Shown piece by piece: positions 17,881 to 51,953 of a stretch of DNA of 64,000 nt. This stretch comes from a bacterium (GTDB lineage Bacteria > Margulisbacteria > Marinamargulisbacteria > JABGVJ01). A model generated the notes under the pieces. It worked only from the letters and a program-made list of their open reading frames with translations, did no database searches and had not been told where the DNA came from. The translations under genes and the position numbers were made by a program. Each line of letters begins with the position of its first letter. Position 1 is the stretch's first letter. The DNA lies in the NCBI GenBank assembly GCA_018646105.1, contig JABGVJ010000099.1:5387-69386 (forward strand), given 5' to 3'.

Positions 17881-17889
17881 TTAAGTTTA

Positions 17890-18210: not shown

Positions 18211-18215
18211 ATTTT

Positions 18216-27029: not shown

Positions 27030-27536
27030 TTATATTAATTCCCTTAAATTTTTAATAATTTTAACCTTTTTGTTTTTAAAATAATTTTGCCAATCTAAAA
27101 ACTCAGTGTATTCTGACATAAATACAAAATCAGCTCCAATAGACTTTGCGCTTTCATAATCATATTTACTGTCTCCTATAAAAATAATAGGCGGCTTTAT
27201 TAAACCTGTTTTCAATTCTCTCTTCAAAATTTTAATTTTATTATCAGGACATCCAAATATACCATCAAGGTTAGACGTTAATCCTTTATCTTTAAATATT
27301 TTTCTAAGTTTTGTTTGCAAGCCACCTGAAACAATTATTTTTTTACTATCTGGCGATAATGCTTGTATTAATTCTTTAAACCCTTCTGTTTCCAGGCAAG
27401 CCAGTAATTTTTTTTCTAGAATTAAACTAAAAGTTTGTAAAAGTTTTTTTAAATCATCTTCATATTCTTTTTGTCCTATAATCGTGCTGAAAAAATATTC
27501 TAATTTTTCAAAGCGGGAAATGCCGCCTTCCTTCAT
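27030..27536 (-). CDS. HAD-like/KdsC-sized hydrolase homolog lacking the N-terminal DxDG nucleophile motif; possibly inactive or truncated
   Basis: 168 aa. Has HAD motifs II-IV (IIVSGG, K, FIGDSKYD) but no motif I. Confidence 0.35.
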   Translation of the reverse strand: MKEGGISRFEKLEYFFSTIIGQKEYEDDLKKLLQTFSLILEKKLLACLETEGFKELIQALSPDSKKIIVSGGLQTKLRKIFKDKGLTSNLDGIFGCPDNKIKILKRELKTGLIKPPIIFIGDSKYDYESAKSIGADFVFMSEYTEFLDWQNYFKNKKVKIIKNLRELI

Positions 27537-27625
27537 ATGATACTTTATAAAAAGTTGTGGATATTATTAATATAGGAAATACCCATATGCTTACGTGAAA
27601 TGGACTGAAAACCGTAATATGTATG

Positions 27626-29930: not shown

Positions 29931-29934
29931 TTTT

Positions 29935-30954: not shown

Positions 30955-30984
30955 ATACTTACCTCCAAAAAATTTAAATTATAT

Positions 30985-35658: not shown

Positions 35659-36804
35659 ATGAAAATTATTTTTACAGGAGATTTATCAGCAAGCGGGATT
35701 TTTTATTCAAAAATAAAAAATAGTGAAAATGTTTTTTCTCAAGAAATAACTTCTTTTTTTAATCAAGCTAATTTTGTTCATGTTAATTTAGAAAATCCGA
35801 TTACGAATCAGCCATTTAGAAAAGATAAAAGAGGAGCAGCTTTAAGAGCTCCTTTGGAAGTTGTTAATTTATTGCAAAAAAATAATATAAATATTTGTTT
35901 ATTAGCCAACAATCATATTGTTGATTGTGGAAAGGCAGGTTTATTAGACACAATTTCAATTTTAAATAAAAATAATATTTTATACTATGGAATTTCAAAT
36001 AAACCTAAATATATTATTCTTAAAAAAGAAAATATGAGAATAGCTTTAATATCTTCTGCTCATATAGAAGGTCCGATGGGAAATGAAAATAGATTAGGGC
36101 CCTATTTTTTAAATAATAGAAGAATTAAAAAAATAATAGAGGAAATTAAAAAAAATGAAAATGTAGATAGCATAATATATAATTATCATGGAGGAACAGA
36201 ATATAATATTATTCCAGAACCTCAGAGAAGAAGGTTTTTTAAAGAACTTATTAATTATGGAGTAGATATAGTTTTTGGGCATCACGCACATGTTCCTCAA
36301 GGAGTTGAAAGACATAAAAATGGTATTATATTTTATGGTTTAGGAAATTTGGTGTTTGATTTGAAATCACAAAAAGATAAAGCATATACGAATTTATCTT
36401 ATTTTATAGAATTGAATTTTAAAAAAAATAAGCCTGTAGAGTTTATGGAGCATTTTTATTATATTGATTATAAAATGGGTAGAATTATTTTGCTTCAAGA
36501 TGATTCTATTAAAAAACGTATAAAAAACAAAATACAGGTTTTTAAAGATGAGGAAGAATATAAACAAGCCTGGTTAGAAGAATCTTATAGAGTTTATTTA
36601 TTTAATAGAAAAATAGATTTTTTTTCATCTAATTTACCTAATAATGAAATAAACAAAAATAATAATAAACAAAAAAAAAGAAATATATTAAATAGAATTT
36701 TAAGTTTAATAAAAAGATTAAGCTTAGATAGTATAAAATCAAATAAAAGGCCTTTTGTTATTGGCGCTATAAAAAGGGGTTTAAAATATGGAGTTAGGAG
36801 GTGA
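35659..36804 (+). CDS. CapA/PGA_cap-family metallophosphatase-like protein
   Basis: N-terminal GDLS...HVNLENPIT and LANNHIVDCG motifs of the CapA family. Confidence 0.55.
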   Translation: MKIIFTGDLSASGIFYSKIKNSENVFSQEITSFFNQANFVHVNLENPITNQPFRKDKRGAALRAPLEVVNLLQKNNINICLLANNHIVDCGKAGLLDTISILNKNNILYYGISNKPKYIILKKENMRIALISSAHIEGPMGNENRLGPYFLNNRRIKKIIEEIKKNENVDSIIYNYHGGTEYNIIPEPQRRRFFKELINYGVDIVFGHHAHVPQGVERHKNGIIFYGLGNLVFDLKSQKDKAYTNLSYFIELNFKKNKPVEFMEHFYYIDYKMGRIILLQDDSIKKRIKNKIQVFKDEEEYKQAWLEESYRVYLFNRKIDFFSSNLPNNEINKNNNKQKKRNILNRILSLIKRLSLDSIKSNKRPFVIGAIKRGLKYGVRR

Positions 36805-37595: not shown

Positions 37596-39305
37596 GTGAA
37601 TAATAATTTGATCATTTCTGAACTAAAATCAGGATGGAAATCTTTTAAGAAAAAAAATATCTGTTTGCGATGGACCGGAAAGATAATTATAAATAATAAA
37701 TTTATGGATTCTCCAATAGAATTATATGATTTATTTGAAAAAATTAATTTTGACGATGATATAGCTATAAAAAAAATATTGGAAAGGCTTGATGGCTTTT
37801 TTACAATAATATATGAAACAGAAAATAATATAATAGCAATTAATGATCGTCTTCGTTCTTATCCAATTTATTTTTATCATAAAGCAAATCAATTATTTAT
37901 ATCAGATAACGCATATTTAATTAAAGAAAAATTCAATTTAAATATTCAAAATAATAATGGAAGTGTAGAATTTTTATTAAGCGGATACGTCACAGGAAAT
38001 GAAACTTTATATAAAGATTTATTACAATTATTACCAGGTCAATATTTGTCTTATGATAAAAAATTGCATAGATTTAAGATAAAGGAGTATTTTAAATATT
38101 ATCCAAATACTAATAATAATTTAGAACTAAGCTTAGAGAATAAAGTAAAAGAATATAAAGAATTAATATATAGTTCATTTGAAAGATTGAAAGATTATAT
38201 TATTAAAAATAAGTATCAGCCAATTATTCCGCTTAGTGGAGGAAGAGATTCTAGATTGATGGCTGTAATGTTAAAAGAAGTGGGGATAGAAAATTCTATA
38301 GCTTTTACTTATGGGACTAAAGAGCATAAAGAGGTTATTAAAAGTAAAGAAATAGCAGGGGAATTAGGGGTAGATTGGTTTTTTTGCTCTTATACAAAAG
38401 AAAAATGGCATAAAGAATATAATAATTCTATAGTAAAAAAATATTTTAATTATGCAGACGGGCTTTCTGTAAGACCACATGTCCTAGATTATATTGCAGT
38501 TAAAGAATTATTTTCAAAGAAAAAAGAAAAATTATTATTTTTGTCTGGACATAGTTTAGATTTTATAGCAGGTAGCCATATTCCTGCATCATTATTTATG
38601 TTAAACAAACCTTCAAAAAATAATTTATATGAAGCGATTTTAGCAAAACATTTTTCATTTCATTATATTTATAAAAAAGAACGAGCTATGCTTATCGAAA
38701 GAATAAGTTCTTCTCTAGATTTTTTGCCGCAAGCTACATTTGATGAAATTATTTCGGCTTTTGAATATTGGGATTGGCGCGAAAGGCAAGGAAAATTTAT
38801 TTTAAATGCACTTAATGTATATGATTTTTTTAATTTTGATTGGTATTTGCCTTTTTGGGAAAGGCAATGGATGAATTTTTTTATGCAATTACCTTGTGAA
38901 TGGCGTTATAAACAAAATTTTCAAAGATATGCTCTTCATAAATTATTTCCAAATTATTTTGAAAAAGAAGAATGGTTTTGTGAGAAAGAAACTAAAAAAG
39001 AAGAAATAAAGAGAAAATTTAAACGTAATCTCAAAAAAATTATTTTAAAAATACCATTGAGCTCATATTATTTCAGGAGAAATAATTATGCTGGTGTTGC
39101 TAGTAATTATGGGGTAGAAAGATATGGGGCATTTGATGTTAATGTTAACTCATTAGAAGAGTTTGCTAAAAAATATACTGCCGAAACAGATATAAGTAGA
39201 ATATTTTATTTTTTTACTTTGCACTATTTATTAAAAAACAATTTCAATTTAAATTTTTTAGATAGTAAATATAAGAAAATAATGGAATTAATAAATTATG
39301 AATAA
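37596..39305 (+). CDS. Asparagine-synthase-family (PP-loop ATP pyrophosphatase) amidotransferase lacking the N-terminal Cys nucleophile (WbpS/WbpG-like)
   Basis: PLSGGRDSRLMAV (SGGxDS PP-loop). The N-terminus is MNNN with no MCG. Confidence 0.6.
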   Translation: MNNNLIISELKSGWKSFKKKNICLRWTGKIIINNKFMDSPIELYDLFEKINFDDDIAIKKILERLDGFFTIIYETENNIIAINDRLRSYPIYFYHKANQLFISDNAYLIKEKFNLNIQNNNGSVEFLLSGYVTGNETLYKDLLQLLPGQYLSYDKKLHRFKIKEYFKYYPNTNNNLELSLENKVKEYKELIYSSFERLKDYIIKNKYQPIIPLSGGRDSRLMAVMLKEVGIENSIAFTYGTKEHKEVIKSKEIAGELGVDWFFCSYTKEKWHKEYNNSIVKKYFNYADGLSVRPHVLDYIAVKELFSKKKEKLLFLSGHSLDFIAGSHIPASLFMLNKPSKNNLYEAILAKHFSFHYIYKKERAMLIERISSSLDFLPQATFDEIISAFEYWDWRERQGKFILNALNVYDFFNFDWYLPFWERQWMNFFMQLPCEWRYKQNFQRYALHKLFPNYFEKEEWFCEKETKKEEIKRKFKRNLKKIILKIPLSSYYFRRNNYAGVASNYGVERYGAFDVNVNSLEEFAKKYTAETDISRIFYFFTLHYLLKNNFNLNFLDSKYKKIMELINYE

Positions 39306-41676: not shown

Positions 41677-43812
41677 ATGTTACAAGCAATAGTAAAAAAA
41701 GGTAAAGTTTTTGCTGAGAAAGTTTCTGCACCAGTTGTATCTAAAAATATGGTTTTAATAAAAGTAGTGAATAGTTGTATTTCAGCTGGAACTGAAATTA
41801 GCGGAGTTAAAGATAGTGGGACATCCCTAATTAAAAAGGTTTTAGACAAGCCGGAGCAATTAGCAAAGGTCGTGGATATGGTTAGACAGCAAGGATTTTG
41901 GGATACATATGAAAAGATTAAAGGGAAATTAGAGATAGGTGTGCCTACAGGATATTCGATTTCTGGGGTTGTTATGGGAGTGGGCGAAGGTGTGTCTGGA
42001 TTTAAAACCGGAGATGAAGTAGCGGCCGCAGGTGCGGGATTAGCTAATCATGCTGAATATGTAAATATTCCAGAAAATTTGGTGATGAAAATGCCTAAAG
42101 GAATGAACTTTAAAGAAGCATCTACAGTGACTTTGGGTGGGATAGCAATGCAGGGAGTGAGAAGAGTAGATTTGAGATTGGGGGAATATGCGGTTGTGGT
42201 TGGGGCTGGTATTTTAGGGCTTTTAAGCATCCAGATGTTAAAGTTAGCGGGAGTTAGGGTAGCAGTAATTGATTTAGATGAAAAAAGGCTAGAGATTGCT
42301 AAGGAATTAGGAGCTGAAATAATTTTAGATCCGGTTAAGACAGATACGGTGAAAGAAATTGAAAATTGGGCTAATGGATATGGGGCGGATGCCGTTTTGT
42401 TTACAGCGGCGACTTCTAGTAATGAACCATTATCCCAAGCTTTTCAAATGTGTAGAAAAAAAGGGAAAGTGGTTCTAGTAGGTGTGTCTGGAATGGAAAT
42501 TAAAAGAGAAGATATTTATGCTAAGGAACTTGATTTCCAAGTTTCTACCTCATATGGTCCTGGAAGGTATGATAAAAATTATGAAGAAAAAGGTCTTGAT
42601 TATCCATATGCTTATGTGAGGTGGACGGAAAATCGTAATATGAGAGAATATTTAAGGCTAGTACGAGATGGACATATTAAATTAGATAAAATGATTAATG
42701 CGGTTTATCCAATAGAGAAAGTAACTGAAGCATTTGAATCTTTGCAGGATAAGGCGAATAAACCGTTAATGGTTATTTTGGATTATGGACAGGTAGATAA
42801 AGAAAAAATTAATAGTTATTTAAAACAGGATAGAAAAATTTTTGTAAATAATATACCACTTAAAAAAGACATTATAAATGTGGCGCTTGTGGGAGCAGGT
42901 GGGTTTGCTACCGGAATGCATTTACCTAATATACGAAAGTTGAAAGATAAATATAGATTATATTGTGTAATGAACAGAACAGGGCATAAAGCAAAAGCTG
43001 TAGCTGAACAATATAAAGCGAATTATGCAACCACGAATTATGAAGATGTATTGAAAGATAAAAATGTAGATTTAGTGTTAATAGCTACCAGGCATGACAG
43101 TCACGCAGATTTAACAATAAAGGCGCTGAAAGCAGGTAAACATGTTTTTGTAGAAAAACCTTTAGCAACCACGCAAGAGGAATTGGAAAGAATAATTGCT
43201 TTTTATGACAGTAACGAATTTAAGTGCAAGCCAGTTTTGTTAACGGGCTTTAACAGAAGGTTTAGTAAATATGCACAAGAAATAAAGAAATATACAGATA
43301 AAAGGATAAACCCTTTATTTATTAGTTATAGAATGAATGCTGGTTTTATACCTTTGGATCATTGGGTACATGAAGATGGCGGTAGAATTGTAGGTGAAGG
43401 ATGTCATATTATTGATTTGATGAGTTTCTTTACAGGATCTAAGATAGTTTCTATTAGTTGCGAAGAAATAACTCCAGTAAATGAGGCAATCAGTTTTAGT
43501 GATAATAAAGCGATTATATTGAAATATGAAGATGGTTCTGTAGCTAATATTAATTATTTTGCTATTGGTAGTAAAGAATATCCTAAAGAGTATATGGAAG
43601 TGCATTTTGATCAAAAAACAATTGTGCTTGATGATTATAAAGCATTGAAAGGATATGGTGTTAAAATTAAAGAAATAACAACAGCCCAAAGTGAAAAAGG
43701 TCAGTTTGAAGAGTTGGAAAGATTATACGAAATATTAAGAGGAGATAAGCAAGATTGGCCTATAGAGTTGTGGGATATGGAGCAGACAACGAGGGTGGGG
43801 ACTTTTAAATGA
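41677..43812 (+). CDS. Two-domain oxidoreductase: N-terminal Zn-dependent MDR alcohol/polyol dehydrogenase fused to a C-terminal Gfo/Idh/MocA NAD(P)-oxidoreductase
   Basis: GVVMGVGEGV and GAGILGLLSIQMLKLAG (MDR family), then VALVGAGGFATGMHLPNI (Gfo/Idh/MocA Rossmann fold); 711 aa. GC is visibly higher than in its neighbours. Confidence 0.65.
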   Translation: MLQAIVKKGKVFAEKVSAPVVSKNMVLIKVVNSCISAGTEISGVKDSGTSLIKKVLDKPEQLAKVVDMVRQQGFWDTYEKIKGKLEIGVPTGYSISGVVMGVGEGVSGFKTGDEVAAAGAGLANHAEYVNIPENLVMKMPKGMNFKEASTVTLGGIAMQGVRRVDLRLGEYAVVVGAGILGLLSIQMLKLAGVRVAVIDLDEKRLEIAKELGAEIILDPVKTDTVKEIENWANGYGADAVLFTAATSSNEPLSQAFQMCRKKGKVVLVGVSGMEIKREDIYAKELDFQVSTSYGPGRYDKNYEEKGLDYPYAYVRWTENRNMREYLRLVRDGHIKLDKMINAVYPIEKVTEAFESLQDKANKPLMVILDYGQVDKEKINSYLKQDRKIFVNNIPLKKDIINVALVGAGGFATGMHLPNIRKLKDKYRLYCVMNRTGHKAKAVAEQYKANYATTNYEDVLKDKNVDLVLIATRHDSHADLTIKALKAGKHVFVEKPLATTQEELERIIAFYDSNEFKCKPVLLTGFNRRFSKYAQEIKKYTDKRINPLFISYRMNAGFIPLDHWVHEDGGRIVGEGCHIIDLMSFFTGSKIVSISCEEITPVNEAISFSDNKAIILKYEDGSVANINYFAIGSKEYPKEYMEVHFDQKTIVLDDYKALKGYGVKIKEITTAQSEKGQFEELERLYEILRGDKQDWPIELWDMEQTTRVGTFK

Positions 43813-44234
43813 ATATAGGCGTTAATTTGAAAGTTTTTTTAATAAAGATGGGAAAGCAGTTTGTTAAATTTTCTATTAATGGGGGGTTTTGTGCAGGTGT
43901 TGAATTTTTAGGGTTTTGGTTTTTTATATATTTTGGAAAAAATTATATGGTTTCTCAAATTTTTTCGTATAGTATTAGTATGTCGCTAAATTTCATTTTA
44001 AATCGATTTTGGACCTTTTCGTTACGAGCGGAGATTAAACAATTAGAAGCTTTTAAATTTTTAGTAGTGAATATAATAACTATGGTATCAATGCTTTTTT
44101 TAATATATATTTTTAAGGATAGAATGAATTTAAATTTATTTGCTAGTAAGATTTTAGCTACAAGTATTTTGATGTTTTTTAATTTTTTTTGCTATAAATT
44201 TTGGGTTTTTAAAAGAAATTTTGTAGAAGGGTAA
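43809..44234 (+). CDS. GtrA-family small membrane protein
   Basis: 141 aa, 4 TM helices, GtrA-like. Confidence 0.55.
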   Translation: MNIGVNLKVFLIKMGKQFVKFSINGGFCAGVEFLGFWFFIYFGKNYMVSQIFSYSISMSLNFILNRFWTFSLRAEIKQLEAFKFLVVNIITMVSMLFLIYIFKDRMNLNLFASKILATSILMFFNFFCYKFWVFKRNFVEG

Positions 44235-45440
44235 ATGTTTATGTTTTCTTTACAAACTAAAAAGTCTATGGCAAAGGCTTTATTAACAAAAAATTCTCCT
44301 TTTTATATTCAATTTTATATTTCTAAATATTGTCATTTAAAATGTAAAATGTGTAATATTGTGGAAGCTAATGCAGATGTTACGCCTTTTAAAAAAGAAC
44401 ATATAGAAAAAATAGCAGATAATTTAGTTAAAATAGGGGCAGGTGTGATCCTTTTGACAGGAGGAGAACCTTTTTTACGGCCAGATATTGATGAAATTGT
44501 GAGGGTTTTTAAAAGCAAAAATTTAGATGTGAGAATGCAAACAGCTGGATTAATTGAACAAAAAGCAAAAATTGAAAAATGTGTGGAAAATGGAGCGAGA
44601 GATATAAATATTAGTTTAGATTCTTTAGATGAAAATTTATCTGATTATATTAATGGAGTGAAAGGTTCTTGGAAAAAGGCTATACAATCTATTTCTTTAG
44701 TGTCTAAAACGTTTCCCAAAAAAGATTCTGTGTGTGCGCTTGGTTGTGTTTTGTCTAATTATAATATAGATGAAATTGAAGCAGTTTTGGAATTTGCTAC
44801 TAAGATTGGTTGGTGGCTATCATTAGTACCAGTACATATTAATGAAGAAGACTACCCCTTGAATTTTAGAGGTTATGATAAATATTTTAAAATTCCGGAA
44901 AGCAAATTTTTTCAATTAAAAGCTTTAATTGAAAGATTGAAAAAGAAAAAAAGAGCAGGATTTAATTTGTTTGATTCAGATGATTATTTGGATTCTATTT
45001 ATCATTTTATAACAACTGGACATCCTAATTGGCGGCACAAAGGCGTTTGCGATACTCCTAATTTGTATTTTGTTATATTACCCGATGGTAGGTTTGCTCC
45101 TTGTTGTGATTATAGGTTTGACGAGGATATTTATGTGTATGATGAAGATTTTCCTGAAATTTATAAAAGTAAAGGATTTAGAAAAAAAATAAAAGCAATT
45201 GCGAAAAAATGTCCAGGGTGTAATTTTGGCAGTTTTCCGGAAATGACTTTGTCAGCAAGGTCTTTTTCAACAATTAAGGAACGTATTTTGTTACAAAGCA
45301 AAGCAAAAAAAGCTGGTTTAAGACCATTGCAAGAGAAAGCAGTTTTAGAGATTATTGCGAATATTAAAGGAAAATATGAGATTTATCATAAAAAAAATTA
45401 TTCTAAATTTAGAGATAAAAAAGTATGTATCAAAAATTAA
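44235..45440 (+). CDS. Radical-SAM enzyme with a Cys-rich C-terminal (SPASM/twitch-like) domain
   Basis: CHLKCKMC (CxxxCxxC), LTGGEPFLRPD, and a C-terminal Cys cluster (C..PCC...CPGC). Confidence 0.65.
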   Translation: MFMFSLQTKKSMAKALLTKNSPFYIQFYISKYCHLKCKMCNIVEANADVTPFKKEHIEKIADNLVKIGAGVILLTGGEPFLRPDIDEIVRVFKSKNLDVRMQTAGLIEQKAKIEKCVENGARDINISLDSLDENLSDYINGVKGSWKKAIQSISLVSKTFPKKDSVCALGCVLSNYNIDEIEAVLEFATKIGWWLSLVPVHINEEDYPLNFRGYDKYFKIPESKFFQLKALIERLKKKKRAGFNLFDSDDYLDSIYHFITTGHPNWRHKGVCDTPNLYFVILPDGRFAPCCDYRFDEDIYVYDEDFPEIYKSKGFRKKIKAIAKKCPGCNFGSFPEMTLSARSFSTIKERILLQSKAKKAGLRPLQEKAVLEIIANIKGKYEIYHKKNYSKFRDKKVCIKN

Positions 45441-47866
45441 CCTCTATCATTAAATATATTAAAAATAAAGAAGTGTCTTTTGCACAGGCTGTAATAAAGC
45501 ATTATATAGTGCCTCAAGATGTTTTGGTTAAGAATATACCATCGGATGCGGTGGTATTAGATATAGGATGTGGAGAGGGAATTTTACTAAATGTTGTTGG
45601 GTATATGTTGTCTAAAAGTAAATGTATAGGTATTGATATTGATCGAAAAAAAATAGATATAGCTAAAAGAAATGCTAATCAAAATGTGGAGTTTAGGTGC
45701 CAGAATTTTTTTGACTTGGATTCTGATTTTAAAGTTGATGTAGTAATCATGAATGATTTTGTGCATCATTTTTCTTATTCTAAACAATTAGAGCTAATGG
45801 ATAACGTTGTAAGAAGAATTAAGCCAGGTGGTAAATTATTTTTAAAGGAAGTAGATCAATTAGATAAGCTAGATAGGGGTGTAACTACGTTTTTTGATAA
45901 AAAGCTTTATCCTAATGATGATTTATCTTATAGAACGAAAGATGAATGGTTAGTTTTTTTAAAGAGGTTAGGGATAACAAATGTTAAGGTAGAAAAAATA
46001 AAAAAAATGTGGCCGGCATCTAATACTTTATTGATAGCTAAATTACCGTTAGATAGAGATGTCGGATATGTTGATAATACAAAAAAAATTCAAGAAAGAA
46101 CGTTAGCTGCTAGAAAAAATAAACTAAAAACGGTTTTTGTAACAGGGGCAACAGGGTTTATTGGTAAATATGTTATAGACTATCTTTTAGAAAAAGGAAT
46201 GGCTGGAAATTCTGTAAGCTTAGTTTTGTTAACTAGAAATATGGATAACATTCCCAAAAAATATTTACATAATGAAAATATTGAGTGGCTAGTAGGGGAT
46301 TTGCATGATATGGAGCCACTTAAAGAATGTTTAGTGGAAATCGATTATGTTTTTCATTTAGCTGCAGAGGTTAAATTTTTTAAAGGTGCGGATGTTTGGA
46401 AAAATAATTATTACGGTACACTTTGTTTACTAGAAGCTTTAAAGGAAGTGAAGATAGAGCGATTTGTATTTGCAAGTACGATAGGCGCTTTTGATCGATT
46501 ACCGTCAGACTCTTGTACTCAACCATTAGATGAAAAGGCCGAGCCTAATCCGTTATCGGAATACGGTAAGTCAAAACTTGAAGCAGAAAGAGCGGTTAGA
46601 AATTCTGGTTTGAATTATACTATCGTGAGGATTCCTTGGGCGTATGGGAAAGGAATGACGCCGGATACCCATGTTAGAAATTTGATGCAGGCAGTGTATC
46701 AAAAGAAAATAGCTACCTGGTTTAATTTCCCAGGTAAAGTAAGTATAGTTGCAGCTCGAGATTTAGCAAGAGCTTTCATTTTTTTAGCAGAAAATAAGAA
46801 AGCTTTAAATGAGATATATTTTGTAACTGATGGGCAACCTGTTTCTTTAGGTGATTTATTTAAATTAATGGGAGATATTATTGGGACAAAAGCTGGATTT
46901 ATAAATATACCTAAAATTATTACTAAAATAGCACAGAGATTAAGGCGTTTTTTTCCCTTAGTTATTCAAAATTTAAATAGTGATGTTTTAACTGCTACAA
47001 ATGAAAAGGTTTTTAATGTTGGGTTTCAGATTGAAACTAGTAAAAGAGAAGGTTTACAGATTTTAGCGGAAGATGTCGGTATATTATCATCGGTTTTAAG
47101 AGAAAATGAAAAGCTGATAACTATTGTAACCGGAGCAGCCTCTGGTATCGGCAAGGCTTTGGCATCTAAGTTATCAGAATTAGGGCATCGCTTATTATTG
47201 ATAGATGTTCAAAAAATTAATGTTGAAAATTTTTCTAATCAGGTAAGGGTGGATTTTTTAAATTTAGATCTAACTAAAGTAGAATCATTAAATTTTATAG
47301 CAGATTATTTACAGAAAAATAAATATGTGGTGGACTGGGTTTTTAACAATGCAGGTATTGGCATACGAGGAGAGTTTGCAGAATTGAAATTTGAAGCACA
47401 GAAAAAAGTAATAGATTTGAATTGCGTGGTGCCTACTTTTTTATCTCATTTAGCTTTAAATCATTTTAAAAAATTTAATAGAGGTAGAATTATTAATATA
47501 GCCTCTTCTTCTGCTGTACAACCTCTTCCTTTGATGAGTGTTTATGCGGCCTCTAAATCTTATATTAAATCTTTTACGGAAAGTATAACCGGAGAAATGT
47601 TGGCTAAAAAAAATATTAGAATAACGACTGTTATTCCTTCTGGTACAGATACGGGGTTTCAAAAGGCTTCTGGTGTTAAAAAGAATGAAAATGAAAAATT
47701 GATGTCGGCAGAAGAAGTTTCTCGAAAAATTATAGATGCTGTTTTTAAAAATAAAAATATTGTTTACGTTGGTTTTCTAGGTAAAATAATGGCGATTTTA
47801 GCGAATATTTTACCGATTAATTGGCAAATTAAACTATGGTATACATTAATGAAAAAAATGAGGTGA
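45425..47866 (+). CDS. Tri-domain fusion: class I SAM methyltransferase, then NAD-dependent epimerase/dehydratase (extended SDR), then classical SDR
   Basis: LDIGCGEG motif; VFVTGATGFIGKYV with YGKSK (YxxxK); VTGAASGIGKAL with YAASK (YxxxK); 813 aa. Confidence 0.65.
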   Translation: MYQKLTSIIKYIKNKEVSFAQAVIKHYIVPQDVLVKNIPSDAVVLDIGCGEGILLNVVGYMLSKSKCIGIDIDRKKIDIAKRNANQNVEFRCQNFFDLDSDFKVDVVIMNDFVHHFSYSKQLELMDNVVRRIKPGGKLFLKEVDQLDKLDRGVTTFFDKKLYPNDDLSYRTKDEWLVFLKRLGITNVKVEKIKKMWPASNTLLIAKLPLDRDVGYVDNTKKIQERTLAARKNKLKTVFVTGATGFIGKYVIDYLLEKGMAGNSVSLVLLTRNMDNIPKKYLHNENIEWLVGDLHDMEPLKECLVEIDYVFHLAAEVKFFKGADVWKNNYYGTLCLLEALKEVKIERFVFASTIGAFDRLPSDSCTQPLDEKAEPNPLSEYGKSKLEAERAVRNSGLNYTIVRIPWAYGKGMTPDTHVRNLMQAVYQKKIATWFNFPGKVSIVAARDLARAFIFLAENKKALNEIYFVTDGQPVSLGDLFKLMGDIIGTKAGFINIPKIITKIAQRLRRFFPLVIQNLNSDVLTATNEKVFNVGFQIETSKREGLQILAEDVGILSSVLRENEKLITIVTGAASGIGKALASKLSELGHRLLLIDVQKINVENFSNQVRVDFLNLDLTKVESLNFIADYLQKNKYVVDWVFNNAGIGIRGEFAELKFEAQKKVIDLNCVVPTFLSHLALNHFKKFNRGRIINIASSSAVQPLPLMSVYAASKSYIKSFTESITGEMLAKKNIRITTVIPSGTDTGFQKASGVKKNENEKLMSAEEVSRKIIDAVFKNKNIVYVGFLGKIMAILANILPINWQIKLWYTLMKKMR

Positions 47867-47875: not shown

Positions 47876-48823
47876 ATGAATAAAGAAAAATTAGATATAG
47901 TTGTTCCTGTTTATAATGAGGAAGAAAGTATAGAAGAGTTATTAAAGCGTTTGTTTGTTTTAAAAGAGAAAATGAATTTTCTCGATATAAATTTTATTTT
48001 TATTAATGATGGGTCTAAAGATCGCACTTTGGAAATTTTAAATAAATATGCGCAACAAAATAATTTTGTAAAAATTATTAATTTTAGTAGGAATTTTGGG
48101 CATCAGTTTGCGTTAACAGCAGGAGTGGATCATTCAGAAGCTGATTTTGTAGCGATCATTGATGCTGATTTGCAAGATCCTCCAGAATTGATTGAAGATA
48201 TGTATAATGAGGCTAAAAAAGGTTGTGACATAGTTTATGGGAAAAGGTTAGAAAGAAAAGGGGAAACTATTTTTAAAAAAATTACAGCCAAGTGTTTCTA
48301 TAAATTTATGAGAATGATGGTAGATGTGGATATTCCGGCTGATACCGGAGATTTTAGATTAATAAACAATAAGGTGCTTAATTATTTAAAGCAGATGCAG
48401 GAAAAGCATAGATTTATTAGAGGAATGGTTCCATGGATAGGTTTTAACAGTACGCCTTTATACTATAATCGAGATATTAGGTATGCTGGAGAAACAAAGT
48501 ATCCTTTAAACAAAATGTTGAAATTTGCTTTGGATGCAATATTTTCTTTTTCTAATAAGCCATTAAAACTAGCTAATCATATAGGTTTTTTTGCTATATT
48601 TATAGGTGTTTTTGGTAGTTTTTTGATGTTGTATTTTTTCTTTTTTACTGATTTTAAAGTACCTGGTATTACAACTACTATTTTAACCATACTTATTATG
48701 GGTGGTATTCAGATTTTAATGTTGGGTATTATAGGTGAATATATTGGTCGGATTTTTGAGGAAGTAAAAGCGCGACCTTTATATGTAATAGAAAGTACTA
48801 AAAATTTTATAAAAAGAGGATAA
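47876..48823 (+). CDS. GT2-family polyprenyl-phosphate glycosyltransferase (GtrB/ArnC/DPM1-like)
   Basis: LDIVVPVYNEE, DGSKD and DADLQDPP motifs; C-terminal TM helices. Confidence 0.75.
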   Translation: MNKEKLDIVVPVYNEEESIEELLKRLFVLKEKMNFLDINFIFINDGSKDRTLEILNKYAQQNNFVKIINFSRNFGHQFALTAGVDHSEADFVAIIDADLQDPPELIEDMYNEAKKGCDIVYGKRLERKGETIFKKITAKCFYKFMRMMVDVDIPADTGDFRLINNKVLNYLKQMQEKHRFIRGMVPWIGFNSTPLYYNRDIRYAGETKYPLNKMLKFALDAIFSFSNKPLKLANHIGFFAIFIGVFGSFLMLYFFFFTDFKVPGITTTILTILIMGGIQILMLGIIGEYIGRIFEEVKARPLYVIESTKNFIKRG

Positions 48824-48826: not shown

Positions 48827-49642
48827 ATGAAAAAAGTTAACTCTGGAGAAAAAATATTACATAAGGAAGAATCTTTTCATGATGATTGGGCGGCTAGTGT
48901 GGATATTGATAGAGTTGCAGTTGATGAGTTTTTTGAGGCTTGTACGGCTCCTGAAAATAGATACATCATGCAAAAATTGGGAGACTTGAATGGAAAAAGA
49001 ATATTGGAAGTTGGTTGCGGTTTAGGCGAGGCTTCTGTATATTTCGCTAAAAAAGGTGCGGATGTAGTTGCTACAGATATTTCTTCTGGAATGCTTGAGG
49101 TAGTAAAAAAATTAGCGGCTTTACATAACGTATCCTTGACCACTAAACAGGCTTATTCGCATGAATTAGATTTTGTTGATAATTCATTTGATGTTGTGTA
49201 TGCAGCAAATCTTTTACATCATATAGACTTAGAACCGACTTTAAAGGAAGTGAAAAGAGTTTTAAAAAAAGGGGGCGTATTTATATCTTGGGATCCATTA
49301 GCGCATAATCCGATGATTAATGTATATAGAAAAATGGCTATGAAAGTAAGAACTGATGATGAACATCCGATACAAATGAAACAATTAAAAATTTTCAAAC
49401 AATTTTTTTCTAAAATAGATATTAAAACGACTTGGTTTTTTACTTTATGGATTTTTTTAAAGTTTTATTTTATTGATAGAGTTGATCCAAATAAAGAGCG
49501 ATATTGGAAGAAAATAATAACAGATCATAAAAAACTAGAAAAAATGTATTATAGGCTGGAGAAGATAGATAATTTATTTTTGAAACTTTTTCCTTTTATG
49601 AGAAGGTTTTGTTGGAATATTGTGGTAATAGGAGAGAAATAG
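48827..49642 (+). CDS. Class I SAM-dependent methyltransferase
   Basis: ILEVGCGLGEASVYFAKKGADVVATDIS motifs; 271 aa. Confidence 0.65.
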   Translation: MKKVNSGEKILHKEESFHDDWAASVDIDRVAVDEFFEACTAPENRYIMQKLGDLNGKRILEVGCGLGEASVYFAKKGADVVATDISSGMLEVVKKLAALHNVSLTTKQAYSHELDFVDNSFDVVYAANLLHHIDLEPTLKEVKRVLKKGGVFISWDPLAHNPMINVYRKMAMKVRTDDEHPIQMKQLKIFKQFFSKIDIKTTWFFTLWIFLKFYFIDRVDPNKERYWKKIITDHKKLEKMYYRLEKIDNLFLKLFPFMRRFCWNIVVIGEK

Positions 49643-49644: not shown

Positions 49645-50949
49645 ATGAATTTTTTAAAAAGTAATAATTTTTTTACTCTTTGTGCTATTTTGTTTTTTGG
49701 TGTATTTTTTTTCTTTTTTGTTAATATTTTTTTTACGCATAAATATAATCCGGAAAAATATTTGAACTCAAATTTAATAGAAATTGCAAAACAAAAATTT
49801 ATTGATAAAGGCTATGAAAATATTCATTTTGGATTGATGCCGGCAAGATATAGAACCTTAATTAAGGCTGTTAATGGATATGCGTCTTCAAAAATTTATT
49901 TGGTAGTTAAAGATAAAAAAAGTTTTAAGGCTTTAAATTTAGCAGATGATAAGGGCTTTTATTTTTTTGTTATAGTTTTGATGAATATTTTTAATCTGTC
50001 TTTAAATAAAGCTATAGATGTATTTTTTATTTTTTTATTTGCAGGGGCTTCAATTTCGGGAATGATAGGTGGAATGTTTCTGTACAAAAAATGGTTGTTA
50101 AGAATGATTTATTTAAGTAGTTTGATGTTTATTAATTTTATTGCAATTAGGGTAGGGGGGTTATATGTCATAAATGCTTTATTGGTAGTTGCTTTTTTTC
50201 CTTGGGTATTATGGCTTTTTGAAAGAAATAAAATAGATAAAATAACTTTTATAGTATTGTCTGCTATTGTTTTTTTTATTTCGATAGCTCATTTTGTGCG
50301 AGTTTATTCAGGTGTTGGGCTATTATTATTTATGCTAATTTTATTATTTTATTTTGTTAAGAGCTCTTTGAAAAAAAAATGTTTGTTAATTTTTATTCTT
50401 CTTATGTTCGGTTTGCTTCCTGTGTTATTTTTTAATTCGTTGTTTAGTGAAAGAGATCTTTTTTTGAGAAAAAATGTAGCTAATTATACAAAACAAACAA
50501 ATATTGAAGGACATTATTTTTGGCATAATGCATATATAGGATTGGGATATCTTGAGAATCCTTATGTGTCAGCATATAAGGATGAAGTTGGTATAGCTAA
50601 AATCAAATCAGTAGATCCAAACGTTATTTTTGCATCTATGCAGCATCAAAAAATTTTAAAAGAAGCTTTTTTTGAATTAATTTTTAAACATCCACTATTT
50701 TTTATGCGTAATGTTTTTGCAAAATTTGGAGTTATTTTATTTTATTTTTTGGCTTCCGCAAATATTGGTTTATTTTTTGCTTATTTTTATAGGAAATCTA
50801 AAATACTTGAAGTTAGTTTTTTGGTAGCTTTGGGATTTAATGCTTTATTCGGAATATTGATAGTTCCATATTCAACTTATTTGCTTGGATTCATAGCTTT
50901 TGCCACTATGTATGGAATGGTAAGTATAAATTATTATTTAGAACAATGA
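49645..50949 (+). CDS. Polytopic membrane protein; possibly a GtrC-like/polymerase-like glycosyl-modifying membrane protein. Start set at MNFLKS.
   Basis: About 11 hydrophobic helices; no motif recognised. Confidence 0.3.
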   Translation: MNFLKSNNFFTLCAILFFGVFFFFFVNIFFTHKYNPEKYLNSNLIEIAKQKFIDKGYENIHFGLMPARYRTLIKAVNGYASSKIYLVVKDKKSFKALNLADDKGFYFFVIVLMNIFNLSLNKAIDVFFIFLFAGASISGMIGGMFLYKKWLLRMIYLSSLMFINFIAIRVGGLYVINALLVVAFFPWVLWLFERNKIDKITFIVLSAIVFFISIAHFVRVYSGVGLLLFMLILLFYFVKSSLKKKCLLIFILLMFGLLPVLFFNSLFSERDLFLRKNVANYTKQTNIEGHYFWHNAYIGLGYLENPYVSAYKDEVGIAKIKSVDPNVIFASMQHQKILKEAFFELIFKHPLFFMRNVFAKFGVILFYFLASANIGLFFAYFYRKSKILEVSFLVALGFNALFGILIVPYSTYLLGFIAFATMYGMVSINYYLEQ

Positions 50950-51953
50950 AAATAAAAGAGATAGAGCTAAAAAAGGATAACAAGTCACCTGTTTTTGCCT
51001 TCCCAAAGTATCTTGATTTTTGTTCCTCTGCTTATGGTTGGGTAGGGGGGGGGGTAAACAATGAGTTGAAATTTATTTTGCCATATACTTTAAAATCTAA
51101 ACTATGTTTTCGTTGGGTTATGTTTTATACGGCTACAATTTGTTTGGATGAAAATTTAACTATAGATCAGGAAAAAGATTTTTTAAATAGTGTAGTTGAG
51201 TTTTTTAAAGCTGAAAAAAAAATTGATTTTATATGTTCTCCGCCTGTTAATGCTGTTTTTAATGTTTATCCTAGTGAAGCAGTATCTGCTGCTTTTGGAA
51301 CATATCTTATTGATTTGAGTTTATCTGAAGAGATTTTATGGGATAAATTGCATTCTAAGCATCGGAATGTAATTAGAAAGGCTATGAAGGATCAAGTAAA
51401 TATAAAGAGAGGGAAAGAATATCTAGATTTAGCTTATAAACTTATCAAAGAAACACAGTTACGATCAGATAAAGGATTTTCTAGTATAGAAAAATTTAAA
51501 GAATTAATAAATTCTTTAGAAAATAACGTTGAAATATTTGTTTCATTTTATAAAGATAAACCACAAGGCTGCGCTGTTTTTTTGTATAGTGATTATGCTG
51601 TTTACTATCGTCATGGAGGAAGCATAGAGAGGCCTTTTACAGGTTCGTTAAATTTGCTTCATTGGGAAGCAATTAAGTATTTTAAGGCAAAAGGTGTGTT
51701 GAGATATGATTTTCTTGGCGCGAGAATAAAACCAGACAAAGGTTCTAAGTTAGAAGGCATACAACGATTTAAAAGTCGGTTTGGCGGAGAATTAAGGCAA
51801 GGGTATTTATGGAAATTGGTTGTAAGAAAATGGAAATATAGGTTATTTCAATTTATTTTTGCTATTAAAAATGGGACGTTTGAAGAAGATATTATTGATC
51901 AAGAAATAAAAAAGGCTAAGAAAGACAATGAAAAAAATATTGCTGACTTGTGA
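50946..51953 (+). CDS. FemAB-family (GNAT-fold) transferase-like protein, PEP-CTERM-locus-type. It contains an internal G10 tract.
   Basis: Size (335 aa) and pattern resemble FemAB-related polysaccharide-locus proteins. G10 at 51045-51054 is read as GGG GGG GGG. Confidence 0.4.
   Translation: MKIKEIELKKDNKSPVFAFPKYLDFCSSAYGWVGGGVNNELKFILPYTLKSKLCFRWVMFYTATICLDENLTIDQEKDFLNSVVEFFKAEKKIDFICSPPVNAVFNVYPSEAVSAAFGTYLIDLSLSEEILWDKLHSKHRNVIRKAMKDQVNIKRGKEYLDLAYKLIKETQLRSDKGFSSIEKFKELINSLENNVEIFVSFYKDKPQGCAVFLYSDYAVYYRHGGSIERPFTGSLNLLHWEAIKYFKAKGVLRYDFLGARIKPDKGSKLEGIQRFKSRFGGELRQGYLWKLVVRKWKYRLFQFIFAIKNGTFEEDIIDQEIKKAKKDNEKNIADL

What the first reader, a model, noticed from the sequence alone, without database searches (positions are those of the whole stretch)
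43809..45440. Radical-SAM/SPASM-like enzyme translationally coupled to GtrA inside a glycan-decoration block
GtrA overlaps the preceding gene by an ATGA. The radical-SAM gene starts 1 nt after the GtrA stop. This radical-SAM protein (CHLKCKMC, GGEPF, C-terminal Cys cluster) is not a standard EPS-locus component. In this context it could catalyse radical C-methylation, epimerisation or deoxygenation of a lipid-linked sugar. Alternatively it could be an anSME-like maturase, although no sulfatase is present.
Basis: inference. Interest (0 to 1): 0.55.

Follow-up and report, generated by a model that had tools for sequence, protein, structure and literature searches.

The report
Radical SAM enzyme in sugar-carrier cassette
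An uncharacterised iron-sulfur radical enzyme sits in a gene set, conserved across distant bacteria and archaea, that loads a sugar onto a membrane lipid carrier, methylates it and probably transfers it to a surface polysaccharide; this suggests a radical tailoring step for lipid-linked sugars that has not been described.

Summary
GtrA (43809-44234) overlaps the upstream gene by ATGA. A radical SAM gene follows immediately, and its real start is probably ATG 44241, not 44235. This tight spacing is not special: all 22 junctions of the 30 kb operon are 58 nt or less, or overlap.

The protein has CX3CXMC, GGEP and a four-Cys CX12GX4C...CX2C tail. That is twitch-like (one auxiliary cluster), not a full seven-Cys SPASM domain. 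No curated family reaches its cut-off, so it is not MoaA, QueE, PflA or anSME. Its best fold match is BlsE, a sugar-acid radical decarboxylase that shares the unusual CxxxCxMC motif.

Homologues are 60-75% identical from Methanoperedens to candidate-phyla-radiation bacteria (CPR) and Gammaproteobacteria, all from metagenome assemblies. In 25 informative loci the constant neighbours are:
- a dedicated methyltransferase (22/25)
- a GtrB-type polyprenyl-phosphate glycosyltransferase (21/25)
- usually an epimerase-SDR fusion (18/25)
- GtrA only occasionally (3/25), once fused to the methyltransferase

A variable polytopic, GT-C-like membrane protein follows.

Best reading: a sugar-tailoring radical enzyme inside an elaborated Gtr-type three-component glycan-decoration system. 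The actual reaction is unknown. I found no literature on this cassette.

The parts
43809..44234 (+). GtrA-family small membrane protein (141 aa), the candidate flippase for the polyprenyl-phosphate-linked sugar
   Evidence: Pfam GtrA_DPMS_TM 69.8 bits, E 2.9e-19. ATGA overlap with the upstream gene. GtrA also lies directly upstream of the cassette methyltransferase in L035 and is fused to it in P0204/L043.
44241..45440 (+). Radical SAM enzyme with a twitch-like C-terminal domain (399 aa; the alternative start at 44235 gives 401 aa). This is the subject of the finding.
   Evidence: Pfam Radical_SAM 85.1 bits, SPASM 22.1. No NCBIfam model reaches its cut-off. Invariant Cys in 401-aa numbering: C33/C37/C40, C116, C167, C171, C272, C290, C291, C326, C329. 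AF2 pLDDT 92.2. Best fold match BlsE 7vob. Start at 44241.
45425..47866 (+). Three-domain protein (813 aa): class I methyltransferase (about residues 35-190), GalE-like extended SDR 'epimerase' (about 235-500), and classical SDR (about 562-800). It overlaps the radical SAM stop by 16 nt.
   Evidence: Pfam Methyltransf_25, Epimerase 133.7 bits, adh_short 137.4 bits. TGxxGxxG/YxxxK and TGxxxGxG/NNAG/YxxxK motifs are readable in the translation. PDB sequence hits are UDP-Glc and UDP-GlcA 4-epimerases and ketoreductases. An SDR homologue lies next to the radical SAM gene in 18/25 loci.
47876..48823 (+). GtrB-type polyprenyl-phosphate glycosyltransferase (GT2 catalytic domain plus C-terminal membrane anchor, 315 aa)
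   Evidence: phmmer against PDB: GtrB sll0501 (5ekp) E 4e-87, 296 bits over residues 5-306; ArnC about 1e-36. NCBIfam PgfS 282 bits, ArnC 151 bits, both below their equivalog cut-offs. Present in 21/25 loci.
48827..49642 (+). Cassette-specific class I SAM methyltransferase ('MT-B', 271 aa) with a conserved aromatic/hydrophobic C-terminal extension
   Evidence: Pfam Methyltransf_11 84.4 bits. Homologues are 55-71% identical across phyla and lie next to the radical SAM gene in 22/25 loci. The conserved C-terminal TWFFTLWIF...PNKERYWKKI...PF..R.CWNI is shown in A4. Best PDB hit is phosphoethanolamine N-methyltransferase, 7e-18 over 183 residues. A GtrA::MT-B fusion exists, P0204.
49645..50949 (+). 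Polytopic membrane protein (434 aa), the candidate GT-C-type transferase that would use the flipped lipid-linked sugar
   Evidence: No Pfam or NCBIfam hit. About 10-12 hydrophobic segments. Only 8 homologues, and the three whose loci were read (L036-L038) carry epimerase, GT2 and methyltransferase genes — directly upstream in L036 and L037, within a few kb in L038. Invariant DD at residues 101-102 in the loop after the first helix. AF2 pLDDT 80.7. The top 10 Foldseek hits are all GT-C enzymes, but with E 0.08-1.3 and TM 0.26-0.40.

Best explanation
The gene at 44241-45440 encodes a member of an uncharacterised, highly conserved radical SAM family with one predicted auxiliary (twitch-type) Fe-S cluster. 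It acts as a sugar-tailoring enzyme in an elaborated Gtr-type 'three-component' glycan-decoration cassette.

Proposed sequence of events:
1. The GalE-like domain of the 813-aa protein provides or reshapes the UDP-hexose (inferred).
2. The GtrB-type GT2 transfers the hexose to undecaprenyl phosphate on the cytoplasmic face. This rests on strong homology to the structurally and biochemically characterised GtrB.
3. The radical SAM enzyme cleaves SAM at its CX3CXMC cluster. The 5'-deoxyadenosyl radical abstracts a ring hydrogen of the sugar, C5 by analogy with BlsE. The auxiliary cluster then handles the substrate-radical electron. The result is an oxidised, decarboxylated or epimerised sugar (inferred; the specific reaction is unknown).
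4. Where present, the classical SDR domain reduces a keto intermediate. The dedicated methyltransferase (48827-49642) and a second methyltransferase domain methylate the product (inferred).
5. GtrA flips the tailored lipid-linked sugar. In other loci an LPG_synthase_TM protein or an ABC transporter would do this (inferred).
6. The polytopic GT-C-like protein (49645-50949) transfers the sugar onto the exopolysaccharide made by the surrounding Wzx/Wzy-type locus (inferred).
For: **Enzyme class**
- Radical_SAM at 85 bits, and a CX12GX4C...CX2C tail with invariant Cys.
- Confident model, pLDDT 92.
- The closest structure is BlsE, the cytosylglucuronate decarboxylase: E 2.4e-12, TM 0.63/0.75. Other nucleoside- and sugar-acting enzymes (MoaA, viperins, AbmM, DesII) follow in the list.
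- BlsE has the same unusual CxxxCxMC motif at the same positions, C31/C35/M37/C38 with GGEP at 73-76. Here they are C31/C35/M37/C38 with GGEP at 74-77 when counted from 44241, and the Met is invariant in the family.

**Context**
- In 25 informative distinct loci from bacteria and archaea, the radical SAM gene lies within a few kb of MT-B (22), a GtrB-like GT2 (21) and an SDR (18).
- The GT2 scores 296 bits against GtrB sll0501.
- GtrA is present in the window and in L035. It is fused to MT-B in P0204.
- Other loci carry different candidate flippases at the cassette: ABC in L001, LPG_synthase_TM in L003 and L017.
- In several loci a polytopic membrane protein with no Pfam family follows the cassette; the five compared are mostly not alignable to one another. 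The window's own one gives only GT-C enzymes as its top 10 fold hits and has an invariant DD in the first loop.
- Five more distant relatives of the radical SAM domain are fused to GT2 glycosyltransferase domains. The one examined in detail (P0358) has a polysaccharide-type GT2.
- The cassettes sit in polysaccharide loci.
Against: - No biochemical or genetic data exist for any member, and no paper on the cassette was found.
- Fold similarity to BlsE is moderate (17% identity, rmsd 4.2 A). SPASM peptide maturases (SuiB, CteB, SkfB, anSME) score nearly as well.
- The SDR is missing from at least four loci that have full flanks (L017, L018, L020, L027). An obligatory 'oxidise then reduce' scheme therefore cannot be general.
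- The GtrB-like GT2 is missing near the cassette in L003, L017, L018 and L043.
- The GT-C assignment rests on non-significant Foldseek E-values.
- Nothing shows whether the substrate is the lipid-linked sugar or the nucleotide sugar.
- GtrA detection in other loci used tblastn and precomputed Pfam calls only, so 3/25 is a lower bound.
Confidence: 0.6

Rival explanations
1. The same enzyme class, but acting on the soluble nucleotide sugar (for example a UDP-hexuronate or UDP-hexose) before GtrB loads it on the lipid. This is what BlsE and DesII do with nucleoside- or nucleotide-linked sugars. The cassette would then simply supply an unusual UDP-sugar.
For: - The best structural analogues (BlsE, viperin, DesII, AbmM, MoaA) all act on soluble nucleoside- or nucleotide-linked substrates.
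- The protein has no predicted membrane segment.
- The adjacent GalE-like domain is of a kind that acts on UDP-sugars.
- UDP-glucose dehydrogenase genes lie near the cassette in L017 and near the related module in L038.
Against: - The most constant partner, MT-B, has a conserved hydrophobic C-terminal extension and is fused to GtrA in one lineage. This points to chemistry at the membrane.
- The radical SAM gene keeps company with GtrB rather than with nucleotide-sugar synthases.
- Neither point bears directly on the radical SAM enzyme's own substrate.
Confidence: 0.25
2. A lipid-modifying radical SAM enzyme that reshapes a lipid-bound head group or the lipid itself. One example would be ring contraction of a lipid-bound hexose to a carbocycle, as proposed for calditol synthase Cds and for HpnJ. 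The product would be a membrane lipid rather than a glycan donor.
For: - The only full-length NCBIfam alignment among the top hits is to the archaeal PTO1314 family (residues 10-352 against profile positions 10-322 of 332).
- Cds and HpnJ are precedents for radical SAM chemistry on lipid-bound hexoses.
- The cassette occurs in archaea and in CPR/DPANN organisms, and some loci lack an obvious GT-C.
- LPG_synthase_TM and HpnA-like hits echo hopanoid-type clusters.
Against: - The PTO1314 score is 75 bits against a cut-off of 306, and I could not establish that PTO1314 is Cds.
- HpnH, HpnA and HpnB scores are far below their cut-offs.
- Most loci, including the window, are embedded in polysaccharide loci with GT4/GT2 genes, Wzx and export genes.
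- The GT2 is a GtrB orthologue, whose product is a donor and not an end product.
Confidence: 0.08
3. A SPASM/twitch peptide or protein maturase: an anSME-like formylglycine generator, or a RiPP enzyme such as a sactipeptide synthase.
For: - Pfam SPASM just passes its threshold (22.1 against 21.5).
- SuiB, CteB, SkfB, PqqE and anSME are among the top fold matches.
- In principle, GT2-radical SAM fusions could belong to glycosylated RiPP pathways.
Against: - Only four or five of the seven SPASM Cys are present.
- No sulfatase was found among 40 ORFs scanned in the window.
- There is no room for a conserved precursor-peptide gene in the tightly packed cassette.
- No peptidase or RiPP recognition element appears among the neighbours.
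- All peptide-maturase NCBIfam models score far below their cut-offs.
- The GT2 part of the one fused relative examined (P0358) resembles polysaccharide GT2s.
Confidence: 0.04
4. A housekeeping radical SAM enzyme (MoaA, QueE, PflA, a heme or PQQ enzyme) that merely happens to lie in the EPS operon.
For: MoaA, NirJ, AhbD and PqqE models give E-values of 1e-16 to 1e-20 on the radical SAM core, and MoaA is a PDB sequence hit.
Against: - Every score is 3- to 9-fold below the curated cut-off, and apart from the uncharacterised PTO1314 and TIGR04133 models, which align full length, the alignments shown cover only the N-terminal half.
- Synteny elsewhere is with GtrB, MT-B and SDR genes, never with molybdopterin, queuosine or pyruvate formate-lyase genes.
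Confidence: 0.01

Closest known systems
Gtr-type three-component glycan modification systems: GtrA flippase, GtrB polyprenyl-phosphate glycosyltransferase and a GtrC/GT-C transferase. Relatives include CsbB/GtcA/YfhO, PgfS/PgfE/PgfM, and the pentofuranose systems of Kelly et al. 2024 (PMC11127046).
   Same: - The window encodes a GtrA and a close GtrB homologue, 296 bits to sll0501.
- A polytopic GT-C-like protein lies directly downstream.
- All of this sits inside a Wzx/Wzy-type polysaccharide locus.
- An SDR epimerase acting on the lipid-linked donor has a precedent in ORF13 and DprE1/E2.
   Different: - Known systems flip the sugar as loaded, or after one simple step such as deformylation, deacetylation or epimerisation.
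- Here a radical SAM enzyme, two methyltransferase activities and two SDR domains are inserted between GtrA and GtrB and are conserved as a unit across phyla.
- No radical SAM component is mentioned in the three-component literature I could search.
- The flippase is interchangeable: GtrA, LPG_synthase_TM or ABC.
BlsE (with MilG and ArgF): radical SAM cytosylglucuronate decarboxylase of blasticidin S biosynthesis (PDB 7VOB; PMC3715490)
   Same: - Best structural match: E 2.4e-12, TM 0.63 by query and 0.75 by target.
- It is also a PDB sequence hit, E 4.7e-9.
- The unusual CxxxCxMC motif, with Met in place of the usual aromatic residue, is at the same positions, and GGEP sits about 35 residues later.
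- The substrate is a pyranose ring.
   Different: - Only 17% identity, and sequence similarity is confined to the core (residues 26-152).
- BlsE's C-terminal Cys motif is CxCxxC at 317-322. Here it is CX12GX4C(C)...CX2C.
- BlsE sits in a nucleoside-antibiotic cluster, not with GtrB or MT-B.
- No uronate-forming dehydrogenase is a conserved part of this cassette.
Twitch-domain radical SAM enzymes acting on sugars or cyclitols: the BtrN dehydrogenase and the NeoN epimerase (from my own knowledge of the family)
   Same: - One auxiliary-cluster motif of four Cys, spaced C...GX4C...CX2C, which is the truncated SPASM pattern.
- A carbohydrate-type pathway context.
- Conserved extra Cys in the core (C116, C167, C171) that could act as hydrogen-atom donors, as in radical epimerases.
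   Different: - BtrN and NeoN were not among the top 50 Foldseek hits, and neither was among the 11 PDB sequence hits.
- Cluster content has not been tested.
- Those enzymes act on soluble aminoglycoside intermediates.
Calditol synthase Cds and HpnJ: radical SAM enzymes proposed to contract a lipid-bound hexose ring (review PMC13459092)
   Same: They are the known precedents for radical SAM chemistry on a hexose already attached to a lipid. The archaeal PTO1314 family gives the best and full-length NCBIfam alignment.
   Different: - The score is far below the cut-off (75 against 306).
- No link between PTO1314 and Cds could be verified.
- HpnJ has a B12-binding-like N-terminal domain (my own knowledge), which this protein lacks.
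- This cassette makes a polyprenyl-phosphate donor, not a membrane core lipid.

Membership tests
Radical SAM superfamily (PF04055) | CX3CX2C cluster motif, a GGE-type SAM-binding motif, and a Pfam score above the gathering threshold | tested here: met
   C33-X3-C37-X2-C40 and G76-G77-E78-P79 are invariant in 14 homologues. Pfam 85.1 bits against 29.5. The AF2 model has alternating strands and helices, consistent with a partial barrel.
SPASM domain (two auxiliary clusters) | Seven-Cys motif CX9-15GX4C-gap-CX2CX5CX3C-gap-C | tested here: not met
   Only C272-X12-G285-X4-C290(C291) and C326-X2-C329 are present and conserved. No Cys follows C329. Pfam SPASM is borderline, 22.1 against 21.5 bits.
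Twitch domain (one auxiliary cluster) | Truncated SPASM with four Cys (C...GX4C...CX2C) that bind one [4Fe-4S] cluster | tested here: inconclusive
   The sequence pattern is met and is invariant.
anSME (anaerobic sulfatase-maturing enzyme) | Seven-Cys SPASM domain, a sulfatase substrate gene nearby, and a match to the anSME family model | tested here: not met
   The motif is incomplete. There is no sulfatase among 40 ORFs scanned. anSME is not among the best 25 NCBIfam hits. It appears only as a mid-rank fold hit with rmsd 12 A.
MoaA (GTP 3',8-cyclase) | NCBIfam equivalog score above the cut-off over the full length, with molybdopterin-gene synteny | tested here: not met
   72.5-73.4 bits against cut-offs of 231-284, with only residues 28-207 aligned. 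The neighbours are GtrB, methyltransferase and SDR genes.
BlsE-like radical SAM sugar-acid decarboxylases | CxxxCxMC motif, BlsE fold, a C-terminal CxCxxC motif, and a hexuronate substrate | tested here: inconclusive
   The motif and the fold resemblance are met. The C-terminal Cys motif differs, and identity is 17%. The substrate is not testable here. The enzyme works like a relative of BlsE, but membership is not shown.
PTO1314 family radical SAM protein (TIGR03961) | Score at or above the curated cut-off of 306 bits | tested here: not met
   74.9 bits, although the alignment is full length, residues 10-352.
B12-dependent (class B) radical SAM methylases | N-terminal cobalamin-binding domain (PF02310) | tested here: not met
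   There is no B12-binding hit in this protein. Separate B12 radical SAM genes do occur in L035 and next to the distant relatives in L029 and L031.
Gtr-type three-component glycosylation system | GtrB-type polyprenyl-phosphate GT2 | tested here: met
   47876-48823 against GtrB sll0501: E 4e-87 over residues 5-306.
Gtr-type three-component glycosylation system | GtrA-family flippase | tested here: met
   43809-44234, Pfam PF04138 at 69.8 bits. Flipping activity is not testable here.
Gtr-type three-component glycosylation system | GT-C fold transferase with an acidic motif in the first external loop | tested here: inconclusive
   For 49645-50949: polytopic and an invariant DD at residues 101-102 between helix 1 and the next membrane helices. 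The top 10 Foldseek hits are all GT-C enzymes, but with E 0.076-1.3 and TM 0.26-0.40.

The most novel reading that the evidence does not exclude
The radical SAM enzyme and its inseparable methyltransferase together make a kind of sugar not yet known on a polyprenyl-phosphate carrier. H-5 of the lipid-linked hexose would be abstracted, as in BlsE. The auxiliary cluster would oxidise the resulting radical. The C5 cation or hexos-5-ulose would then be either trapped as a methyl ketal by the methyltransferase or rearranged to a ring-contracted carbasugar, as proposed for Cds. This would be the first radical tailoring of a lipid-linked glycosyl donor. It is spread by horizontal transfer between archaea, CPR bacteria and diderm bacteria.
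Probability: 0.1. Interest if true: 0.8.

Novelty: new variant of a known kind. Interest (0 to 1): 0.55.

Why it matters
Few enzymes are known to modify a sugar after it has been loaded on undecaprenyl or decaprenyl phosphate: ArnD, NaxD, DprE1/E2 and ORF13. The 2024 work on three-component systems states that epimerases in such side-chain systems were otherwise unknown.

A radical SAM step conserved with GtrB and a dedicated methyltransferase would add radical chemistry to that short list. It would also point to an undescribed surface sugar, because the cassette occurs from Methanoperedens and Woesearchaeota to CPR bacteria, Omnitrophota, Planctomycetota and Gammaproteobacteria.

The family is compact and easy to test. 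The radical SAM enzyme and the methyltransferase are each 60-75% identical across phyla, the cassette has four to six genes, and the substrates can be synthesised. This makes it a good target for assigning a function to one of the many unannotated radical SAM families.

Tried and rejected
1. **Curated family assignment.** NCBIfam gave 58 hits, none near its cut-off.
2. **PDB by sequence.** A profile search found only radical SAM core matches. A search with the C-terminal Cys region alone returned only chance hits to TFB4.
3. **Literature.** Searches for radical SAM together with GtrA, GtrB, GT-C/undecaprenyl, polyprenyl phosphate or lipid-linked sugars, and for PTO1314, found nothing on this cassette. 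The two hits that mention both GtrA and radical SAM are unrelated.
4. **Homology between downstream membrane proteins.** phmmer found no similarity among the nine compared. Separately, tblastn showed that the L043 601-aa protein matches L006's at 31%.
5. **GtrA in other loci.** phmmer with the window GtrA found none. This search is insensitive for such short, divergent membrane proteins, so I relied on precomputed Pfam calls and on tblastn with three GtrA queries.
6. **'Radical dehydrogenase plus obligatory SDR reductase' as the general mechanism (a DprE1/E2 analogue).** Weakened because four full-length loci lack the SDR.
7. **The methyltransferase as a phosphoethanolamine N-methyltransferase.** The PDB hit (7e-18 over 183 residues) is suggestive, but no phosphoethanolamine transferase is part of the cassette. 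I left this as a lead.
8. **Organism identification.** The window equals NCBI GCA_018644845.1 contig JABGPR010000035.1, labelled only 'bacterium'. The radical SAM protein itself is not returned by the homologue search (best hit 75%), although its neighbour is found at 100%.

Full report
**1. What is in the sequence**

The window (GC 31.7%) carries housekeeping genes at its left end: HisRS, ProRS, PPi-PFK, DXS, H+-PPase and SerRS. From about 19.6 kb it holds a Wza/Wzc/initiating-transferase/Wzx-type exopolysaccharide locus. That locus continues as one + strand block from 32814 to 62908.

Inside the block, ATG 43809 of a 141-aa GtrA-family protein (Pfam 69.8 bits) overlaps the TGA of the upstream 711-aa ADH_zinc/GFO_IDH_MocA fusion. 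The GtrA stop (44232-44234) is followed directly by ATG 44235 and by a second ATG at 44241. Three things favour 44241 as the real start of the radical SAM gene:
- Homologues start MF[ST]xQTK.
- AGAAGGG at 44225-44231 is well spaced for 44241 and too close to 44235.
- Public gene calls on the identical contig give a 399-aa product that starts there.

The tight spacing is not distinctive. All 22 gene junctions of the block are 58 nt or less, and 10 overlap.

**2. What kind of radical SAM enzyme it is**

Pfam gives Radical_SAM at 85 bits, Fer4_12, and a borderline SPASM hit at 22.1 against 21.5. In alignments of 14 and 36 homologues, the following Cys are invariant or nearly so (401-aa numbering):
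- C33, C37 and C40 (the SAM cluster), with GGEP at 76-79
- C116, C167 and C171 in the core
- C272, C290, C291, C326 and C329 in the C-terminal region

The C-terminal pattern C272-X12-G-X4-C290 ... C326-X2-C329 is the first half of the SPASM motif. The remaining three Cys are absent. By sequence this is a twitch-like domain with one auxiliary cluster (inference; cluster content untested).

No NCBIfam model approaches its cut-off:
- The best, PTO1314, scores 75 against 306, although the alignment is full length.
- MoaA models score 72-73 against 231-284 and align only to the N-terminal half.
- HpnH, Tes, PqqE, NirJ and the peptide-maturase models all score far below their cut-offs.
- There is no B12-binding domain.

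A profile search of PDB sequences finds only core similarity to MoaA, AbmM, SkfB, BlsE, GDGT-MAS, PqqE and the viperins.

**3. Structure**

An AlphaFold2 model built from 36 homologues is confident (pLDDT 92.2, pTM 0.91). Foldseek against the PDB ranks BlsE, the radical SAM cytosylglucuronate decarboxylase, first (E 2.4e-12; TM 0.63 by query and 0.75 by target; rmsd 4.2 A). SuiB, CteB, SkfB, MoaA, PqqE, anSME, the viperins, AbmM and DesII follow.

The BlsE paper reports an unusual CxxxCxMC motif (C31, C35, M37, C38) and GGEP at 73-76. Counted from 44241, the window protein has C31, C35, M37 and C38, with GGEP at 74-77. The Met is invariant in the family. This is a resemblance, not membership. 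Identity is 17%, and the C-terminal Cys motifs differ.

**4. Relatives and their neighbourhoods**

The homologue search returns 1125 proteins. The top 120 are 60-75% identical and are named only 'radical SAM protein'. A scan of one genome per species finds 26 loci, all in metagenome-assembled or single-cell genomes. They include uncultured Gammaproteobacteria, Shapirobacteria, Parcubacteria, Omnitrophota, Woesearchaeota, Methanoperedens/Methanosarcinales, Spirochaetaceae, Planctomycetota, Thermodesulfobacteriota, Oligoflexia, Gemmatimonadota and a Ruminococcus MAG. Such high identity across domains, combined with a patchy distribution, implies strong constraint and horizontal spread (inference).

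There are 25 informative distinct loci whose radical SAM protein is at least 47% identical. Their neighbours within a few kb are (Pfam views):

| Neighbour | Loci |
|---|---|
| Homologue of the methyltransferase at 48827-49642 ('MT-B') | 22 |
| GtrB-like GT2 | 21 |
| Classical SDR, usually fused behind a GalE-like domain | 18 |
| GtrA | 3 |

A second methyltransferase comes in two non-alignable forms:
- fused at the N-terminus of the epimerase-SDR protein, as in the window, L001 and L033 (encoded separately in L009)
- a separate gene of about 300 aa between the SDR and the GT2, in L003, L007, L010, L015, L016, L022, L024, L034 and L043

The minimal unit is the radical SAM gene plus MT-B (L017, L018). 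Relatives at 39-41% identity keep the cassette (L025, L026). Those at 34-37% (L028, L029, L031) do not; L029 and L031 sit beside B12-binding radical SAM genes, and L029 also beside GT2 and GT4 genes.

**5. The partners**

- *GT2.* The GT2 at 47876-48823 matches GtrB sll0501 at E 4e-87 over its whole length, and ArnC at about 1e-36. It is a polyprenyl-phosphate glycosyltransferase.
- *MT-B.* This is a class I methyltransferase whose conserved C-terminal extension is rich in aromatic and hydrophobic residues. Its best PDB hit is a phosphoethanolamine N-methyltransferase (7e-18 over 183 residues), and the other hits are generic. In P0204/L043 it is fused behind a GtrA domain, and in L035 a GtrA gene lies directly upstream of it. 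Other loci have LPG_synthase_TM (L003, L017) or an ABC transporter (L001) at the cassette, which fits interchangeable flippases.
- *813-aa protein.* It has intact cofactor and catalytic motifs in both SDR domains. Its PDB hits are UDP-hexose and UDP-hexuronate 4-epimerases and ketoreductases.
- *Downstream membrane protein.* In several loci the gene after the cassette encodes a polytopic membrane protein with no Pfam family. The five compared are mostly unrelated to one another; L006 and L043 share one. The window's protein (49645-50949) has only 8 homologues; the three loci read (L036-L038) carry epimerase, GT2 and methyltransferase genes, directly upstream in two, and have no radical SAM gene in the stretch read. 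It has an invariant DD in the loop after its first helix. Its AF2 model (pLDDT 80.7) gives ArnT, AglB, ALG3, Emb, AftA and AftB as its top ten fold hits, but at non-significant E-values. A GT-C role is likely but not shown.

**6. Further support for a glycan role**

A profile search of 1.84 billion cluster representatives finds 163 clusters at E of 1e-30 or better. Five of these are large proteins in which related radical SAM/SPASM domains are fused to GT2 domains (P0358, P0365, P0373, P0392, P0393). In P0358, the one checked, the GT2 part resembles polysaccharide GT2s and the radical SAM part again hits SkfB and BlsE best.

**7. Mechanism**

Shown:
- The enzyme class.
- Conserved synteny with a GtrB orthologue and a dedicated methyltransferase.
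- Recurrent links to flippase-type proteins.
- Location in polysaccharide loci.

Inferred:
- The GT2 loads a hexose on undecaprenyl phosphate.
- The radical SAM enzyme abstracts a ring hydrogen and, with its auxiliary cluster, yields an oxidised, decarboxylated or epimerised sugar.
- The SDR, where present, reduces a keto intermediate.
- The methyltransferases methylate the product.
- GtrA flips the donor.
- The GT-C-like protein transfers it to the polymer.

I put 0.6 on the general statement that this is a sugar-tailoring radical SAM enzyme of a GtrB-centred cassette. Any single reaction type gets no more than about 0.2.

The main rival is action on the nucleotide sugar before loading (0.25). 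It cannot be separated from the lipid-linked reading with sequence data. The GtrA::MT-B fusion and the hydrophobic tail of MT-B favour membrane-level chemistry for the methyltransferase only.

The other rivals are poorly supported or refuted:
- lipid head-group remodelling, as in Cds and HpnJ (0.08)
- peptide or protein maturation (0.04)
- a housekeeping role (0.01)

**8. Comparison with what is known, and novelty**

The system works like a Gtr-type three-component glycosylation system and contains two of its three defining parts. What is new is the conserved block of radical SAM, methyltransferase and SDR genes. None of the searchable literature describes this block. Kelly et al. 2024 note that even simple epimerases are exceptional in such systems.

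I rate it a new variant of a known kind, with interest 0.55. It is a coherent, testable and probably new tailoring step, but it is supported so far only by comparative genomics and a predicted fold.

Noticed in passing
L035:9001-15481 (contig of P0095): Translation with table 11 puts stop codons inside the GtrA gene. P0095 shows W at positions where every other homologue has an invariant G. The locus therefore seems to read TGA as Gly (code 25, Gracilibacteria/Absconditabacteria type). Its cassette also contains a B12-binding radical SAM gene.
   Followed up: partly
L043:4249-5466 (P0204): A single 405-aa protein fuses a GtrA domain to the cassette methyltransferase. The cassette order is radical SAM, Epi-SDR, MT, GtrA::MT, then a 601-aa membrane protein, with no GtrB-like GT2 nearby.
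   Followed up: partly
L003:12404-15846 and L017:4120-6968: A SAM synthetase gene lies within a few kb of the cassette in a Methanoperedens MAG and directly upstream of it in a Shapirobacteria MAG, and both loci also carry an LPG_synthase_TM membrane protein. This fits a SAM-hungry pathway. L017 also has a UDP-glucose dehydrogenase downstream.
   Followed up: no
proteins P0358, P0365, P0373, P0392, P0393: These are large proteins of 1038-1493 aa that combine a GT2 glycosyltransferase domain with two or three related radical SAM domains, each protein also carrying SPASM domain(s). No function is known to me, and their genomic context could not be looked up.
   Followed up: partly
L029:899-6468 and L031:5455-9137: Distant relatives of the radical SAM protein in Omnitrophota (34-37% identity) lack the cassette. 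Each sits next to a B12-binding radical SAM gene and two small proteins of 169-188 aa with no Pfam family; L029 also has GT2 and GT4 genes alongside.
   Followed up: partly
window 27030-32619 (- strand): A block of six minus-strand genes interrupts the + strand polysaccharide locus. It includes a 4Fe-4S/LdpA-like protein and an HMGL-like protein. Four of the six ORFs were not scanned.
   Followed up: no
window 32814-62908 versus 1-19500: Genes of the polysaccharide block have 22-35% GC, most of them 23-31%. The housekeeping left end has 36%. This fits a horizontally acquired or fast-evolving surface-glycan island.
   Followed up: no
window 35659-36804, 37596-39305, 50946-51953, 54131-56251, 59640-62908: The same operon has several unusual accessories: a PGA_cap (CapA-like) protein, a divergent asparagine-synthase-like protein, a FemAB-family protein directly after the GT-C-like gene, a heparinase II/III-like protein, and a DUF4956 protein followed by a CotH-kinase/beta-helix protein.
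   Followed up: no
window 41677-43812: This is a 711-aa fusion of a zinc-type alcohol dehydrogenase domain and a GFO/IDH/MocA oxidoreductase domain. It is preceded by a DegT-type aminotransferase and overlaps the GtrA start. It is not part of the conserved cassette elsewhere.
   Followed up: no
window 44241-45440 versus 48827-49642 (database behaviour): The homologue search returns the window's methyltransferase at 100% identity (P0129, 16 contigs; NCBI GCA_018644845.1). The best hit for the radical SAM protein is only 75%, although the same public contigs encode it. The exact protein seems to be absent from, or withheld in, that search index.
   Followed up: partly
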